A DNA stretch of 40,736 nt from a virus: the UHGV virus genome UHGV-2023338. One strand, 5' to 3'. Below, piece by piece: positions 23,009 through 37,471 of the stretch; within the stretch, counting starts at the first letter, position 1; each line of letters starts with the position of its first letter. Below the pieces are notes generated by a model. It was not told the origin of the DNA and ran no database searches. It saw only the letters and a list, made by a program, of their open reading frames with translations. A program made the position numbers and the translations under genes.

Positions 23009-23085
23009 GTGGCATTAGCTCAGTTGGACAGAGCAACCGCCTTCTAAGCGGTTGGTCGCAGGTTCGAATCCTGCATGCCACGCCA
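23009..23085 (+). tRNA. tRNA-Arg (anticodon UCU), phage-encoded
   Basis: Cloverleaf folded by hand: acceptor GTGGCAT/ATGCCAC, D-arm GCTC/GAGC, anticodon stem ACCGC/GCGGT with loop CUUCUAA, T-arm GCAGG-TTCGAAT-CCTGC, encoded CCA. Confidence 0.9.
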
Positions 23086-31128: not shown

Positions 31129-31929
31129 TTACTTGATAAATCCTGCCGCCTTTCCCCGCCTGTATTCCTCCATCAGCCACTGCGCCGGTGTTATTCCCCC
31201 AAGGGTGGCGGCGTTAGGCATGCACCCGAAACTTCGCCCTGGTGGATGGTAAACGTCTCTCCCTGTGTCCGGAGGTGTACTCATGGGCTCTGGCTTTGCC
31301 TGTATGCTGATCACCGGATCGGGTATCTGCTGTCCGGAAGCCACCTTTTTCGCCCAATCATCGAGCAGCCTGCGCGCGTGTTTCTCAACCTCAATCTCGC
31401 TAAGCTGGCGCTGATACATTGCACGGCGGGTATCACATACGACCCAGTACATAACCGGATGCCGCCACGGGAATCTTTCGGGACCACCAGGATATAAACT
31501 TTTTTCCTTGCTGTACCGGTGAAACTCCGCCATCACATCGTCAATGGTGACGCCAAGAACCATCTTGCTGTCTTTGCACCACTTGATGAATTGCCCTGGC
31601 GACGGCCAGAACGGAGATTCACTGGCGCGGGCGTGGCGCATACCAGCAGAAACCTGTTCACGGGTTCGGATCCCACCTTCGGCAAACGCAGCAATCCACT
31701 GCTGTTTTGCAGCGACTTCCTGCTCTGGCGTCTTCAGGTTGGTTACCACTGCCGCCGGAAACAGTTGTTTCAGCTGTTTGAAAAGGGCATCAACAAGCCT
31801 CTCTGCTGACATGTTCACCACGTTGTCATTGTTGGTGTACTGATGCTCATAACCTGACATGCGAGAAAGGGCTTCTCCGTCACGGTTTTGTATCGCGGTA
31901 AAAACGTTGTTCACAAGAAATCCTCCCAT
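31129..31929 (-). CDS. P: Replication protein P-like helicase loader
   Basis: 266 aa; block SAGMRHARASESPFWPSPGQFIKWC closely parallels lambda P (NAGMRVARRQNRPFLPSPGQFVAWC). Confidence 0.85.
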   Translation of the reverse strand: MGGFLVNNVFTAIQNRDGEALSRMSGYEHQYTNNDNVVNMSAERLVDALFKQLKQLFPAAVVTNLKTPEQEVAAKQQWIAAFAEGGIRTREQVSAGMRHARASESPFWPSPGQFIKWCKDSKMVLGVTIDDVMAEFHRYSKEKSLYPGGPERFPWRHPVMYWVVCDTRRAMYQRQLSEIEVEKHARRLLDDWAKKVASGQQIPDPVISIQAKPEPMSTPPDTGRDVYHPPGRSFGCMPNAATLGGITPAQWLMEEYRRGKAAGFIK

Positions 31930-32726
31930 GCTTCAGGGCTGTTCCAGTGCGGAACGTTGTTATCAGGTAATGTTGATTGCTTCTGTCTGCTAATCTGCAG
32001 CCGCCTTGCCAGCTTCTGCTCCCACTGTGCCTGATGGTATGCCTTACCCTCAGCCATCCAGTAAATTCTGAACTCTGCAAGTTCCTGTGCCGTTGGCAGA
32101 CTGTCCAGGTAGATCCCCTGCAATGAGCTTTTCCGAAGAAAGTCATCTGATGGCTGCCATTGTTCATGCATGACAAATTTGCCTAATTGCCCTGGCCCAC
32201 CAGGAGGAACAAAGTTATTCATCACGGCGTTGTTTGCGCCGGGGTCATGAGGCACAGAATCCCCGCTTTTTGTCCTGCTCTCCCTCTCTTGGTTAAATGA
32301 CTGGTTATATGACTGGTTCTGGATCCCGTTTTTGGGATCATTCAACATCCCGTTTTTGGGATCATTCAACATCCCGTTTTTGGGTATATTCCCGTTTTCG
32401 GTAACATTACCGTTTTCGGGTTCATTACCCCCTTCCCGGTTGCCTTTAATGTTCCCGTTTTTGGTTATATTAAGAGAGAAAACCCGCACTCTTTTCGTCG
32501 CTCCCTTTCTCTCTCCGGTATCTGAAATAAGCCCCATTTTCATGAGCGATATAAGCCCGGCCTGCACGGTTTTTTTGTTCAGGCAAGTGTCTTTAACGAG
32601 GCGTTCTATGCTGGGGTAGCAGAGGTTATATTCATCGGCTCTGTCAGCCATCGAGAGCAGTATGAGCTTTAATGACGAGCTACCTGGATCTGTCTCCCAG
32701 GCCCAATCTGTTGCATGTCTGCTCAT
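31911..32726 (-). CDS. Replication initiator (lambda O-like role) with internal iterons
   Basis: 271 aa; N-terminal HTH-like region; internal peptide repeats NGMLNDPK encoded by DNA iterons; overlaps P start. Confidence 0.7.
   Translation of the reverse strand: MSRHATDWAWETDPGSSSLKLILLSMADRADEYNLCYPSIERLVKDTCLNKKTVQAGLISLMKMGLISDTGERKGATKRVRVFSLNITKNGNIKGNREGGNEPENGNVTENGNIPKNGMLNDPKNGMLNDPKNGIQNQSYNQSFNQERESRTKSGDSVPHDPGANNAVMNNFVPPGGPGQLGKFVMHEQWQPSDDFLRKSSLQGIYLDSLPTAQELAEFRIYWMAEGKAYHQAQWEQKLARRLQISRQKQSTLPDNNVPHWNSPEAWEDFL
32322..32470. repeat. Origin-type iteron array (about 7 copies of CCCGTTTT(T/C)GG, 18-24 bp period)
   Basis: Directly read; first two 24-bp units ATCCCGTTTTTGGGATCATTCAAC identical; lies inside initiator gene as in lambda ori. 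Confidence 0.7.
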
Positions 32727-32741
32727 GATTAATCTCCGCTA

Positions 32742-32942
32742 TCAGCTTGAATGTTGTGGGGAGGAATTAATCATGATCTGCTTAATCTCTGCCCTGATAC
32801 GACGGTTTGATTCCATGGTGCACTCAACACAGTGTCCGTTGTAAACCCAGCGTTCACTGTCATGTCCGTGCTTACATGTTTTTCCGGTGTAGTAGCGTTT
32901 AAGTCCGCGCTTTGCGGCATCAATACGTGTAATGATTTCCAT
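32742..32942 (-). CDS. Small Cys/His zinc-binding protein (cII-position)
   Basis: Start trimmed to internal Met with AGGG RBS; 66 aa; CKHGH...CVEC motif; function not recognised. Confidence 0.4.
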   Translation of the reverse strand: MEIITRIDAAKRGLKRYYTGKTCKHGHDSERWVYNGHCVECTMESNRRIRAEIKQIMINSSPQHSS

Positions 32943-33023
32943 GGTAAGCCCTGCTATTAGTATTGGGATTACGGTCATTTTGTGCTGACACAAAAAAAAG
33001 ATCAACCAGATTTGGTTTTTTAT

Positions 33024-33092: not shown

Positions 33093-33323
33093 TCATGAGT
33101 AGAAGAAGTATGCCAGTTCTGCTTTTGAGCGCAGCCATTGTCTTGTTTTACAGGCTTTAAAAAGCCCATTCATCAATACTTTACCTGGCATTTTGCGCTT
33201 ACCTGTTAAGTGAGTCTGGATATAGTGACTCGTCGTTCCGGCTTCCTGTGCGAAGGCTTCACGCTCATCCGGAGTAAGTGCAAGCCAGTGCTTTTTGAAA
33301 TCGAAATGTTCGTTATCGCTCAT
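33093..33323 (-). CDS. Cro-like small HTH regulator
   Basis: 76 aa; HTH-like segment AFAQEAGTTSHYIQTHLTGKRK; first gene of rightward (minus-strand) early operon leading to replication genes. Confidence 0.5.
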   Translation of the reverse strand: MSDNEHFDFKKHWLALTPDEREAFAQEAGTTSHYIQTHLTGKRKMPGKVLMNGLFKACKTRQWLRSKAELAYFFYS

Positions 33324-33477: not shown

Positions 33478-34062
33478 ATGAAAAGTATCCAGGACGTCCG
33501 CAGGCAAAATCTCAACGACTTGATCGACCGTGAATTCAATGGTGTTCAGACGCGGATGGCAGAAAAACTTGGAACTCAGGCAAATCTGGTAAACCGCTGG
33601 GCTCTTGGCAAGAAGGTTATCGGCGACCAGGTTGCGCGAAAAATTGAAGCTGCCGCCAATAAACCACGTAACTGGCTTGATATCGATCGCTCGCTTTCTC
33701 AGGAAGGTTTTCAGCCTGTCGGCCCGAGCGATATAGGTCAGCTGGCGGCTCACAACCTGGAACGCTGGATGAGCGAAAGCCGCGACCTTTCAACACAGGG
33801 AAAACTTCACCGCGCATCCGGCGTCGCCCAGGTGACAATCAGCCGCCTGTTAAACAATGAAGTCAGCGTTTCCATTTCCACCCTGGAGAATGTTGCATCC
33901 GCATTCGGGCGTCACGGCTATGAATTACTGATTCACCCGCACGACCCTGCGACTATCAACTATGATCGCTCGCGCTACGCATTGTTACCTGAAACAGAGA
34001 AGGCAAAGATCGAAAGTTACATTGAATTTGTCATCAACCAGAACGAAAAAAGCAAACAATAA
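33478..34062 (+). CDS. CI-like prophage repressor candidate (two HTH regions, no evident autopeptidase domain)
   Basis: 194 aa; XRE-type HTH MAEKLGTQANLVNRWALGKK and second HTH-like ASGVAQVTISRLLNNEV; no Ala-Gly/Ser...Lys S24-type motifs seen; followed by terminator. Confidence 0.55.
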   Translation: MKSIQDVRRQNLNDLIDREFNGVQTRMAEKLGTQANLVNRWALGKKVIGDQVARKIEAAANKPRNWLDIDRSLSQEGFQPVGPSDIGQLAAHNLERWMSESRDLSTQGKLHRASGVAQVTISRLLNNEVSVSISTLENVASAFGRHGYELLIHPHDPATINYDRSRYALLPETEKAKIESYIEFVINQNEKSKQ

Positions 34063-36533: not shown

Positions 36534-37471
36534 GCAACGACATCGCAAACATCAACGCACCAGTAGACACAGCAATCGCTGGAACTGCTGCAACTATTTT
36601 CAGCCCAGACGGCTTGAACCAACTGATGAAATTCGCCGAGGTAATGGCGCAAAGCCGCGTAACGGTACCGGCGCACCTCGCCGGGAAACCAGCTGATTGC
36701 ATGGCCGTGGCAATGCAGGCTGCGCAGTGGGGAATGAACCCGTTTGCCGTGGCTCAGAAAACCCATGTTGTGAACGGCACGCTAGGTTATGAAGCCCAAT
36801 TAGTAAACGCAGTTATCTCAACGATGTCGCCAACAAAAGATCGCATCAACTACGAGTGGTTTGGGCCGTGGGAACGCGTGATCGGTAAGTTTGTTGAGAA
36901 AACATCCAAAAACGGCAATCCATATATCGCACCAGGCTGGACTCTAAAAGACGAAGAAGGCTGCGGTGTTCGCGTATGGGCAACCATGAAGGGCGAGGAT
37001 CAACCTCGAGTGCTTGAGTTAATGCTGTCTCAAGCACAGGTAAGAAACTCCACACTTTGGGCCAGTGATCCGAAACAACAACTCGCATACCTTGCGACAA
37101 AACGCTGGTCTCGCCTGCACTGTCCTGACGTAATCATGGGCGTCTACACCCCAGACGAATTACAGGAAACGGCACCGCGCGTTGAGCGAGACATTACTCC
37201 GCAAACGACAACTGCTGCGGGAATGAACAGTCTGATCAACGCTAAAACAGTGAAAAAGCCTGATGAGCAAACGCGTAAAGCGGATAGCCGTGATCCAGAA
37301 GAAATGCTGATGGCCTTTACCAGCGCAGCGATGAATTACAGCACTGTCTCCGAACTGGATAAGGCTTACAAATACATTGCACAAAAACTTTCAGATGATG
37401 ACGAACTGCTGGCAAAAGCCACCGACGTTTACAGCGTTCGTCGGGAAGAATTAAACGAAACATCTATGTAA
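36530..37471 (+). CDS. ssDNA-annealing protein, RecT-like
   Basis: Start trimmed to Met overlapping exonuclease stop; 313 aa; pairing with exonuclease typical of RecET-type modules. Confidence 0.5.
   Translation: MSNDIANINAPVDTAIAGTAATIFSPDGLNQLMKFAEVMAQSRVTVPAHLAGKPADCMAVAMQAAQWGMNPFAVAQKTHVVNGTLGYEAQLVNAVISTMSPTKDRINYEWFGPWERVIGKFVEKTSKNGNPYIAPGWTLKDEEGCGVRVWATMKGEDQPRVLELMLSQAQVRNSTLWASDPKQQLAYLATKRWSRLHCPDVIMGVYTPDELQETAPRVERDITPQTTTAAGMNSLINAKTVKKPDEQTRKADSRDPEEMLMAFTSAAMNYSTVSELDKAYKYIAQKLSDDDELLAKATDVYSVRREELNETSM

What the first reader, a model, noticed from the sequence alone, without database searches (positions are those of the whole stretch)
32322..32470. Iteron-type origin embedded in the replication initiator gene
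Seen: about seven direct repeats with core CCCGTTTT(T/C)GG at 18-24 bp spacing (first two 24-bp units identical) inside gene 31911-32726, mirrored in the protein as NGMLNDPK repeats; P-like helicase loader follows. Established: lambda ori lies within O as iterons. Inference: this is the prophage origin.
Basis: partly seen in the sequence, partly recalled or inferred. Interest (0 to 1): 0.4.

Follow-up and report, generated by a model that had tools for sequence, protein, structure and literature searches.

The report
Prophage replication origin inside initiator gene
A phiV10-like E. coli prophage carries, inside its own replication-initiator gene, an array of six short symmetric DNA repeats that is almost certainly the phage's replication origin, built on the textbook lambda/phi80 plan, so it is a solid but ordinary finding.

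Summary
Window 32323-32467 holds six exact copies of CCGTTTTYGG plus one degenerate copy. They lie inside gene 31911-32726(-) and encode the PKNGMLND peptide repeats. A lambda-P-type helicase loader gene follows.

The origin interpretation is supported by comparison, not by experiment:
- Initiators with the same N-terminal HTH_36 domain were grouped into 23 clusters from Escherichia, Edwardsiella, Vibrio, Acinetobacter and Burkholderia phages and IMG/VR contigs. All carry 3-7 copies of a CC-N6-GG motif at the same place in the gene (20.1 per kb against 0.81 per kb elsewhere).
- In 19 of 23 clusters the motif falls in more than one codon phase, so the DNA is conserved rather than the peptide.
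- The sites annotated as gp15-binding in the phi80 origin (TTCCCGAAAACGGGAA) match a window copy at 15 of 16 bases.
- Edwardsiella phage GF-2 joins this N-domain and array to a lambda-O C-terminal domain.
- Near-identical prophages carry 4-11 copies, always in frame.

Differences from lambda:
- The initiator is HTH_36 plus a DnaT-like C-domain, not Pfam Phage_rep_O.
- The flanking candidate unwinding segment (12-bp repeats and a polypurine tract, 32260-32318) is only weakly AT-rich.

Verdict: new member of a known kind; low to moderate interest.

The parts
31911..32726 (-). Replication initiator gene (271 aa): N-terminal HTH_36 winged-helix domain, Asn/Gly/Pro-rich linker encoded by the repeats, C-terminal DnaT-like domain
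   Evidence: ORF. Pfam HTH_36 (aa 18-67, E 1.8e-10) and DnaT DNA-binding domain (aa 184-252, E 1.2e-15). PHROG 1032 'replication initiation protein', E 1.3e-108.
32472..32726 (-). Coding region of the N-terminal DNA-binding domain (aa 1-85), the presumed iteron reader
   Evidence: 44-58% identical to the N-domains of the PPompW, GF-2, Vibrio Her, AP22, Ab105-2phi and Bcep176 initiators. All of these are HTH_36.
32452..32467 (.). Iteron 1 (promoter-proximal, set apart from the others); coding strand TAACCAAAAACGGGAA
32430..32439 (.). Degenerate iteron remnant (CCCTTCCCGG, 7 of 10 to the core)
   Evidence: Read from the sequence. Most polymorphic stretch of the array in relatives with the same layout.
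32407..32422 (.). Iteron 2; coding strand AACCCGAAAACGGTAA
32389..32404 (.). Iteron 3; coding strand TTACCGAAAACGGGAA (15 of 16 identical to the phi80 gp15 site TTCCCGAAAACGGGAA)
32371..32386 (.). Iteron 4; coding strand TACCCAAAAACGGGAT
32347..32362 (.). Iteron 5; dyad ATCCCAAAAACGGGAT, part of the identical 24-bp units
32323..32338 (.). Iteron 6 (promoter-distal); dyad ATCCCAAAAACGGGAT
32290..32318 (.). Second repeat element: 12-bp tandem units (coding strand CAGAACCAGTCA TATAACCAGTCA TTTAACCA). Candidate unwinding or auxiliary site.
   Evidence: TRF period 12, 2.4 copies. Second least stable 30-bp window of the gene. Relatives carry 1-3 copies. A positionally equivalent RGAAYC-containing 12-13-bp repeat follows the last iteron in 22 of 23 clusters.
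32260..32291 (.). Polypurine (coding strand) / polypyrimidine tract next to the 12-mers
   Evidence: Purine fraction 0.9 in a 30-nt window of the coding strand. Role is inferred only.
31932..32189 (-). Coding region of the DnaT-like C-terminal domain (aa 180-265)
   Evidence: phmmer against PDB: E. coli DnaT residues 85-170, E 6.6e-21.
31129..31929 (-). Lambda-P-type helicase loader gene, overlapping the initiator stop codon
   Evidence: Pfam Phage_lambda_P E 1.5e-56. PHROG 109 'P-like helicase loader' E 2.4e-92.
33093..33323 (-). cro-like first gene of the early operon that runs into the initiator gene
   Evidence: PHROG 35. Promoter-like site 33377-33349(-) and terminator-like site 33071-33052(-). 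The phiV10 annotation has the same order.
33478..34062 (+). Divergent repressor gene (two HTH_3 motifs)

Best explanation
The array at 32323-32467 is the iteron part of the replication origin of a phiV10-like (Uetakevirus) prophage. It works on the lambda/phi80 plan.

Proposed mechanism:
1. The N-terminal winged-helix (HTH_36) domain of the 271-aa initiator binds, probably as dimers, to six 16-bp dyad-symmetric sites (consensus ATCCCAAAAACGGGAT; core CCRAAAACGG). These sites lie in the part of its own gene that encodes the interdomain linker.
2. The resulting nucleoprotein complex destabilises a flanking low-stability segment. The most likely segment is the promoter-distal 12-bp repeats and polypurine tract at 32260-32318.
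3. The DnaT-like C-terminal domain contacts single-stranded DNA and/or the P-like loader encoded by the next gene, which delivers host DnaB.

Shown here: the repeats, their dyad symmetry, their position, their family-wide conservation at the DNA level, the domain content, and the gene order.
Inferred: binding, unwinding, loader recruitment, and which flank opens.
For: 1. The cluster is not chance. Six exact cores lie within 140 bp, against 0.15 expected in the whole window.
2. It is conserved where it should be. In 23 clusters of initiators with under 80% N-domain identity, 114 CC-N6(AT-rich)-GG motifs fall at gene nt 255-500 and 12 fall elsewhere (20.1 against 0.81 per kb). An unbiased most-frequent-9-mer scan picks the same segment in most genes.
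3. The constraint is on DNA, not peptide. The motif occupies at least 2 codon phases in 19 of 23 clusters and all 3 in 10 of them. Bcep176, with 17- and 22-bp spacing, is an example. phi80 reads the same core as FPKTG where the window reads PENG.
4. Dyad symmetry is maintained. Flank positions -2/+2 and -3/+3 are complementary in 0.66 and 0.63 of sites, against shuffle means of 0.54 and 0.39, with 0 of 2000 shuffles reaching the observed values. Arm types include ATCCC/GGGAT, GTACC/GGTAC, GTTCC/GGAAC and ACCCCC/GGGGGT.
5. It matches a known origin. The phi80 sites annotated as gp15-binding, TTCCCGAAAACGGGAA x4, match a window copy at 15 of 16.
6. There is a natural domain swap. The GF-2 initiator has this N-domain (50% identity) and this type of array, fused to a lambda-O-like C-domain, and is followed by P.
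7. Among 43 distinct same-layout relatives, 2 of 60 core positions are polymorphic against 13 of 79 inter-core positions (Fisher p = 0.014).
8. Copy number ranges from 4 to 11 and is always in frame, so the linker tolerates length changes.
9. The context is right: a P-like loader follows, and the gene sits in an early operon beside a repressor/cro-like pair.
10. The two least stable 30-bp windows of the gene flank the array.
11. The same phage appears as a 41,027-bp circular record alongside a chromosomal copy in two complete assemblies.
Against: - There is no experimental evidence for binding or for origin activity.
- There is no lambda-grade AT-rich tract. The 40 bp after the last iteron are 42% GC, against 23% in lambda and 33% in phi80. 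The least stable window has dG -33.5 to -34.9 kcal/mol, against -30.3 in lambda.
- The N-domain is not Pfam Phage_rep_O. Its relation to lambda O is only weakly supported: BLASTP finds nothing and hhalign gives probability 47%.
- The second repeat element keeps one codon phase in 21 of 23 clusters, so peptide-level conservation of that part cannot be excluded.
- The core-versus-spacer polymorphism test is modest, and core versus the rest of the gene is not significant (p = 0.15).
- The CC-N6-GG pattern used for counting was derived from the window and its first relatives.
Confidence: 0.8

Rival explanations
1. The repeats are only a peptide-level feature. They would be an Asn/Gly/Pro-rich flexible linker that grows and shrinks by slippage, with the DNA repeats a by-product that has no cis-acting role.
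For: The array encodes a low-complexity, length-variable linker, with close relatives spanning 263-311 aa. In the window all six cores share one codon phase. Across the family, 76 of 114 motifs are in phase 1.
Against: The same DNA motif occurs in 2-3 codon phases in 19 of 23 clusters. It also occurs in another phase in phi80, giving different peptides. Dyad symmetry of the flanks exceeds shuffles. Cores vary less than inter-core codons. A peptide repeat does not predict a palindromic DNA unit.
Confidence: 0.04
2. The array is a genuine set of initiator-binding sites, but it serves regulation rather than strand opening. It could act in autoregulation, as a roadblock, in copy control or handcuffing, or in exclusion of related phages. 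Initiation would then occur elsewhere.
For: There is no strongly AT-rich tract and no DnaA or IHF consensus next to the array. Copy number is highly polymorphic, 4-11, as might be expected for a titration or incompatibility determinant.
Against: No other tandem-repeat array scoring above 51 exists in the 40.7-kb window. The architecture matches lambda, phi80 and P22, where the intragenic array is annotated as the origin or as initiator-binding sites. The two least stable windows of the gene flank the array. A regulatory role would not exclude origin function.
Confidence: 0.1
3. The array is a decaying remnant. The prophage would be defective, and the repeats would be relics of a formerly functional origin.
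For: One copy is degenerate and variable. Some IMG/VR relatives have truncated initiator ORFs of 182 and 231 aa.
Against: The initiator and P ORFs are intact. The gene is 97-99% identical at the DNA level to those of the isolated phage records phiV10, EC.W1-9, phiv142-3 and PAS61, and its protein is identical to that of EC.W1-9. The window's layout is the modal one, found in 40 of 78 loci. A circular 41-kb form occurs in two assemblies.
Confidence: 0.05

Closest known systems
phi80 origin within gene 15 (GenBank JX871397, four sites annotated as gp15-binding), followed by gene 14 (P-like)
   Same: The iteron core and geometry are the same: TTCCCGAAAACGGGAA against the window's TTACCGAAAACGGGAA and ATCCCAAAAACGGGAT (CC-N6-GG dyad). 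The array lies inside the initiator gene just after the N-terminal DNA-binding domain. A P-type loader gene follows.
   Different: phi80 gp15 has a Pfam Phage_rep_O N-domain, not HTH_36; from the translations its C-terminal part resembles lambda O, whereas the window's is DnaT-like. phi80 has 4 sites at 20-21 bp spacing, the window has 6 at 18-24 bp. The motif is read in a different codon phase. The phi80 flank is more AT-rich (33% against 42% GC).
Bacteriophage lambda ori within gene O (four iterons plus AT-rich region), O/P system
   Same: The origin sits in the middle of the initiator gene. The iterons are dyad-symmetric with an A-rich centre (ATCCCTCAAAACGAGGGA). The order is N-domain, iterons, downstream flank, C-domain. 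A P loader follows, in an early operon next to cro/repressor (PMC7466680). Copy-number variants are known in the class: Stx phages have six iterons (PMC7466680).
   Different: The lambda iteron is 18-19 bp with 9 bp between CCC and GGG, where the window has 6. Lambda has a 23% GC AT-rich tract. There is no significant sequence similarity between the proteins (BLASTP), they fall in different Pfam families, and the profile comparison is inconclusive.
P22 ori within gene 18, followed by the gene 12 DnaB-type helicase
   Same: An annotated rep_origin lies inside the initiator gene. Relatives of the window's family (AP22, Ab105-2phi) likewise pair the initiator with a DnaB-like helicase instead of P.
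   Different: P22 gp18 is Phage_rep_O and its repeats have a different sequence.
E. coli DnaT (primosomal protein I / replication restart protein), C-terminal ssDNA-binding domain
   Same: Residues 180-265 of the window protein align with DnaT residues 85-170 at E 6.6e-21. This explains the database names 'primosomal protein' and 'DnaT-like'.
   Different: The match covers only the C-terminal part of DnaT (residues 85-170). The first 85 residues of the window protein are instead an origin-type winged-helix domain. The protein is a phage initiator, not a DnaT orthologue.
Plasmid iteron origins (Rep/iteron class such as pSC101, R6K, F, P1)
   Same: Both have direct repeats bound by a winged-helix initiator, and copy number of the repeats can matter for control (own knowledge).
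   Different: Plasmid iterons lie outside the rep gene, usually with DnaA boxes and a clear AT-rich unwinding element (own knowledge). Here the array is intragenic and no DnaA box consensus is present.

Membership tests
Lambdoid intragenic iteron origin (ori-lambda class) | Three or more directly repeated initiator-binding sites, each with internal dyad symmetry, spaced about two helical turns apart | tested here: met
   Six 16-bp dyads with start-to-start spacing of 24, 24, 18, 18 and 45 bp. Flank complementarity exceeds shuffles across the family.
Lambdoid intragenic iteron origin (ori-lambda class) | The array lies inside the initiator ORF, between the N-terminal DNA-binding domain and the C-terminal domain | tested here: met
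   The array occupies gene nt 260-404 (aa 87-135), between HTH_36 (aa 18-67) and the DnaT-like domain (aa 180-265). The position is the same in 23 of 23 clusters.
Lambdoid intragenic iteron origin (ori-lambda class) | AT-rich unwinding region directly flanking the iterons on the promoter-distal side | tested here: inconclusive
   The 40 bp after the last iteron are 42% GC, against 23% in lambda and 33% in phi80. It is the second least stable 30-bp window of the gene (-34.9 against a mean of -40.4 kcal/mol) but far weaker than lambda (-30.3). Many relatives have a 20-30% GC tract 41-80 bp downstream.
Lambdoid intragenic iteron origin (ori-lambda class) | The initiator gene is followed by a helicase loader (P) or helicase gene, in the early operon next to the repressor/cro switch | tested here: met
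   Phage_lambda_P E 1.5e-56. A cro-like gene and a divergent repressor lie upstream, with promoter- and terminator-like sites.
Lambdoid intragenic iteron origin (ori-lambda class) | The initiator binds the iterons, and the fragment supports initiator-dependent replication | not testable with these tools
   This needs EMSA or footprinting and a plasmid replication assay.
Pfam Phage_rep_O (PF04492) initiators (lambda O, P22 gp18, phi80 gp15) | N-terminal domain matches PF04492 above the gathering score | tested here: not met
   The window protein matches HTH_36 and DnaT only. Lambda O, P22 gp18 and phi80 gp15 all match PF04492. BLASTP against lambda O is not significant.
Pfam Phage_rep_O (PF04492) initiators (lambda O, P22 gp18, phi80 gp15) | Remote homology of the winged-helix DNA-binding domain | tested here: inconclusive
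   hhalign of 7 against 3 sequences gives probability 47% and E 1.9e-4 over 45 columns (recognition helix plus wing). The aligned stretch ends where the arrays begin in both families.
HTH_36-type phage replication initiators (PHROG 1032 and relatives) | N-terminal HTH_36 domain and a full-length match to the PHROG profile | tested here: met
   PHROG 1032 E 1.3e-108 over aa 1-269. HTH_36 E 1.8e-10.
DnaT (primosomal protein I) orthologues | Full-length DnaT architecture (N-terminal part of the 179-aa protein plus the C-terminal ssDNA-binding domain) | tested here: not met
   Only the C-terminal domain matches (query 180-265 against DnaT 85-170). The N-terminal half is HTH_36 plus the repeat-encoded linker.
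Plasmid Rep/iteron origins | Iterons outside the rep gene, with DnaA boxes and an AT-rich unwinding element | tested here: not met
   The array is intragenic. There is no DnaA box (TTATCCACA, up to 1 mismatch) in 31800-32900.

The most novel reading that the evidence does not exclude
HTH_36-type initiators from Escherichia, Edwardsiella, Vibrio, Acinetobacter and Burkholderia phages, and the sequence-dissimilar Phage_rep_O initiator of phi80, all use essentially one iteron code: a CC-N6-GG dyad, often CCRAAAACGG. If so, the O-type and HTH_36-type origin modules would be one ancient cassette of N-domain plus iterons. That cassette is shuffled onto different C-domains (DnaT-like, lambda-O-like, helicase-coupled). 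The 4-11-copy polymorphism of the array in otherwise near-identical E. coli prophages might then tune replication vigour or cross-incompatibility between co-resident phages.
Probability: 0.3. Interest if true: 0.45.

Novelty: new member of a known kind. Interest (0 to 1): 0.3.

Why it matters
It gives a concrete, testable origin for phiV10-type (Uetakevirus) prophages, which occur in 424 of 5426 complete E. coli genomes. The phiV10 RefSeq annotation carries no origin feature in this region, and database names for the initiator range from 'replication initiation protein' to 'primosomal protein' and 'DnaT-like'. phiV10 is cited in work on phage engineering and reporter phages, where knowing the origin and its minimal fragment could be useful. 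More broadly, the comparison shows that a large family of HTH_36 initiators follows the lambda rule that the origin lies in the linker-coding part of the initiator gene. This allows automatic origin annotation for many prophages. It adds no new principle.

Tried and rejected
Diversity therefore came from IMG/VR and the phage collection only.
- The first IMG/VR scan returned only near-identical relatives. I re-queried with a consensus-first alignment that left out the window and GF-2 sequences.
- Single-sequence AlphaFold2 of the initiator was uninformative (mean pLDDT 38). I made no fold search and claim nothing about linker disorder from structure.
- BLASTP of the window protein against lambda O found nothing. 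The profile-profile comparison was inconclusive.
- There is no DnaA-box or IHF consensus near the array.
- The extra exact core at 36906(-) lacks a dyad context and is taken as chance.
- The terminator-like hits at 32333 and 32357(+) are by-products of the iteron dyads and lie antisense to the gene.
- The antisense ORF 32332-32619(+), 95 aa, is most likely a repeat artefact.
- My first polymorphism count was invalid because one equal-length gene with a different internal layout was included. I redid it with a Hamming-distance filter.
- Literature searches found no description of an origin for phiV10, epsilon15 or Uetakevirus phages, or of iterons for HTH_36 initiators. The library lacks most subscription journals, so the original phiV10 and epsilon15 genome papers could not be checked.
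- An Rfam scan found no RNA family in the region.

Full report
WHAT IS THERE

The window is a phiV10-like (genus Uetakevirus) E. coli prophage or phage genome. Bases 1-25000 match phiV10, PAS61, phiv142-3 and the O157 typing phages at 96-97% identity. The gene carrying the finding is 97-99% identical to the corresponding genes of EC.W1-9, phiv142-3, PAS61 and phiV10. It occurs in 424 of 5426 complete E. coli genomes.

The ORF 31911-32726(-) encodes 271 aa. It has an N-terminal HTH_36 domain (aa 18-67) and a C-terminal DnaT DNA-binding domain (aa 184-252). It matches PHROG 1032 'replication initiation protein' at E 1.3e-108. Residues 180-265 align with residues 85-170 of E. coli DnaT at E 6.6e-21.

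The next gene, 31129-31929(-), is a lambda-P-type helicase loader (Pfam E 1.5e-56; PHROG 109). Upstream lie a small gene, a terminator-like site, a cro-like gene and a divergent repressor. This is the lambdoid early-right layout.

THE OBSERVATION

It is confirmed.
- Tandem Repeats Finder gives 32323-32384 (period 24, 2.6 copies, 100% match) and 32374-32429 (period 18, 3.1 copies).
- Exact CCGTTTTYGG occurs at 32326, 32350, 32374, 32392, 32410 and 32455. It occurs only once elsewhere in the window, where about 0.15 matches are expected by composition.
- The seventh copy is a degenerate remnant, 32430-32439.
- The array encodes ...NIPKNGMLNDPKNGMLNDPKNGIQ....
- Each unit is itself a dyad: ATCCCAAAAACGGGAT on the coding strand.
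- A second tandem repeat (12 bp x 2.4, 32290-32318) and a polypurine tract follow in the direction of transcription.

IS IT A DNA ELEMENT OR A PEPTIDE REPEAT?

I collected homologues of the N-terminal domain from annotated phages: PPompW, Edwardsiella GF-2, Vibrio Her, Acinetobacter AP22 and Ab105-2phi, and Burkholderia Bcep176. I added 80 diverse IMG/VR loci. These were grouped into 23 clusters with under 80% N-domain identity.

- Position. Every cluster has 3-7 copies of CC-N6(AT-rich)-GG at gene nt 255-500. There are 114 instances inside that segment and 12 elsewhere in the genes, that is 20.1 against 0.81 per kb. A motif-free scan for the most frequent 9-mer picks the same segment in most genes.
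- Codon phase. The motif falls in two or three codon phases in 19 of 23 clusters. In Bcep176, with spacing of 17 and 22 bp, the phases run 0, 2, 1, 0, 1, 2, 0. The conserved entity is therefore the DNA, not the peptide.
- Dyad symmetry. The arms are maintained with different sequences in different lineages: ATCCC/GGGAT, GTACC/GGTAC, GTTCC/GGAAC, ACCCCC/GGGGGT. Complementarity at flank positions 2 and 3 exceeds all 2000 shuffles.
- Polymorphism. Among 43 distinct close relatives with the window's layout, 2 of 60 core positions are polymorphic against 13 of 79 inter-core positions (Fisher p = 0.014). The degenerate copy is the most variable stretch. Core against the rest of the gene is not significant (p = 0.15).

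LINK TO KNOWN ORIGINS

- Lambda carries its four annotated iterons inside gene O, and P22 carries its annotated rep_origin inside gene 18.
- phi80 carries four sites annotated as gp15-binding inside gene 15. They read AACCGGAAACGGGAA, TTCCCGAAAACGGGAA, TTCCCGAAATCAGGAA and TTCCCGAAAACGGTA. They have the same CC-N6-GG core. One window copy (TTACCGAAAACGGGAA) differs from the phi80 consensus at a single base. phi80 translates the motif in another phase (FPKTG).
[quoted passage not shown] O forms dimers, and Stx phages have six iterons instead of four (PMC7466680, read).
- The GF-2 initiator is a natural chimera. Its first 139 residues are 50% identical to the window protein and are followed by ATCCCAAAATTGGGAT iterons. 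Its C-terminal half is visibly lambda-O-like, and a P gene follows.
- AP22 and Ab105-2phi couple the same N-domain and array to a DnaB-like helicase, as P22 does.

The N-domain plus array therefore behaves as one origin-specificity module that is exchanged between different C-terminal partner-interaction domains.

DIFFERENCES FROM THE LAMBDA ARCHETYPE

- Protein family. The N-domain is Pfam HTH_36. Lambda O, P22 gp18 and phi80 gp15 are Phage_rep_O. BLASTP against lambda O finds nothing. A small profile-profile comparison gives probability 47% (E 1.9e-4) over the recognition helix and wing, and the alignment ends exactly where both arrays begin. Homology is plausible but not shown.
- C-domain. 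It is DnaT-like rather than O-like.
- Flanking segment. The region that would correspond to the AT-rich unwinding tract is weak. The 40 bp after the last iteron are 42% GC, against 23% in lambda and 33% in phi80. The two least stable 30-bp windows of the gene do flank the array (32445: -33.5; 32285: -34.9; gene mean -40.4 kcal/mol), but lambda reaches -30.3.
- Second repeat element. All 23 clusters have a second periodic element right after the last iteron. It consists of RGAAYC-containing units of about 12-13 bp, often followed by an A-rich tract of 20-30% GC. It keeps one codon phase in 21 of 23 clusters, so peptide-level conservation is not excluded for this part.
- Host-factor sites. No DnaA-box or IHF consensus is present.

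POLYMORPHISM OF THE ARRAY

- Near-identical prophages carry 4 to 11 cores. Both the 18-bp and 24-bp units expand and contract, blocks of several units can be duplicated, and the 12-mer occurs in 1-3 copies.
- Among the intact close relatives, length differences are multiples of 3 bp (263-311 aa).
- The window's layout is the modal one, found in 40 of 78 IMG/VR loci.
- From my own knowledge, the classical lambda ori- mutations are small in-frame deletions in the iterons that leave O active in trans. The tolerance seen here fits that picture.

MECHANISM, WITH STATUS OF EACH STEP

- Shown: a frame-independent, dyad-symmetric, position-conserved repeat array inside an initiator gene that is followed by a P-type loader.
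- Inferred: dimers of the N-domain bind the six sites and form an O-some-like complex. A flank opens, most likely 32260-32318. The DnaT-like domain binds the exposed single strand and/or the P-like protein, which brings in DnaB.
- I put 0.8 on the array being the iteron part of the functional origin.
- Rivals: a purely peptide-level repeat (about 0.04), binding sites that serve only regulation or incompatibility (about 0.1), and a decayed relic (about 0.05).

NOVELTY

The principle is textbook and the iteron core is that of phi80. The new points are these:
- The phiV10 RefSeq record carries no origin feature in this region.
- Database names for the initiator include 'primosomal protein I' and 'DnaT-like'.
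- I found no paper describing iterons for HTH_36-type phage initiators. The library lacks the original phiV10 and epsilon15 genome papers, so this is not proof of absence.

I classify it as a new member of a known kind, with interest 0.3.

Noticed in passing
NZ_CP079771.1 (L172) and NZ_CP079768.1; chromosomal copies in NZ_CP079770.1 and NZ_CP079767.1: Two complete E. coli assemblies (duck strains HL15 and SF10) each list a 41,027-bp record labelled as a plasmid; the HL15 record (pHL15EC-2), the one inspected, is circular. Both records carry this replication module at 99.8% identity, and each strain also has a chromosomal copy.
   Followed up: partly
L002 (PP488543.1, Escherichia phage BP9, 131937-138295): A 138-kb record classified as Vequintavirus carries a phiV10-type early and replication region (repressor, cro-like gene, initiator with one fewer 24-bp iteron, P-like gene) in its last ~6 kb. 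This could be an assembly chimera or prophage contamination.
   Followed up: no
L004 (Edwardsiella phage GF-2, 1501-2343): The initiator is a natural chimera. It has an HTH_36 N-domain and ATCCCAAAATTGGGAT iterons of the window's type, fused to a C-terminal half that closely resembles lambda O, and it is followed by a P gene.
   Followed up: partly
window 32290-32318 and the equivalent position in L003-L008 and L090-L169: A second family-wide periodic element lies directly after the last iteron. It consists of units of about 12-13 bp containing RGAAYC (for example GAATCTATCAAT or GAACCAGTCAT), often followed by TAAAAATAAAAA. Whether it is a DNA element (unwinding or host-factor site) or a conserved QN(Q/L)(S/P) peptide is unresolved, because 21 of 23 clusters keep one codon phase.
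   Followed up: partly
window 23009-23085 (+): A phage-borne tRNA-Arg (anticodon TCT) was found by both ARAGORN and Rfam. The O157 typing phage annotations also list a tRNA-Arg in the matching region.
   Followed up: no
L015, L010, L106-L108, L112 (IMG/VR): Some relatives have truncated initiator ORFs (138-231 aa) that end in or shortly after the repeat region. This could reflect out-of-frame repeat changes or sequencing errors in the array.
   Followed up: no
window 1-25000 against the phage collection: 64 Synechococcus phage records match some part of the first 25 kb, presumably within the 80-90% identity band. This is unexpected for an enterobacterial podovirus. I did not determine which segment matches; the tRNA gene is an untested guess.
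   Followed up: no
window 32742-33005 (-): A small ORF lies between the cro-like gene and the initiator, in the position lambda gives to cII. It matches PHROG 1081 (function unknown) and has Cys/His-rich motifs (KHGHDSERWVYNGHCVEC). phiV10 annotates a shorter version of about 66 aa.
   Followed up: no
window 32332-32619 (+): A 95-aa antisense ORF with the repeat FNIPFLGS is produced by the iterons on the opposite strand. It is most likely not a gene. The terminator-like hits at 32333 and 32357(+) are likewise by-products of the dyads.
   Followed up: partly
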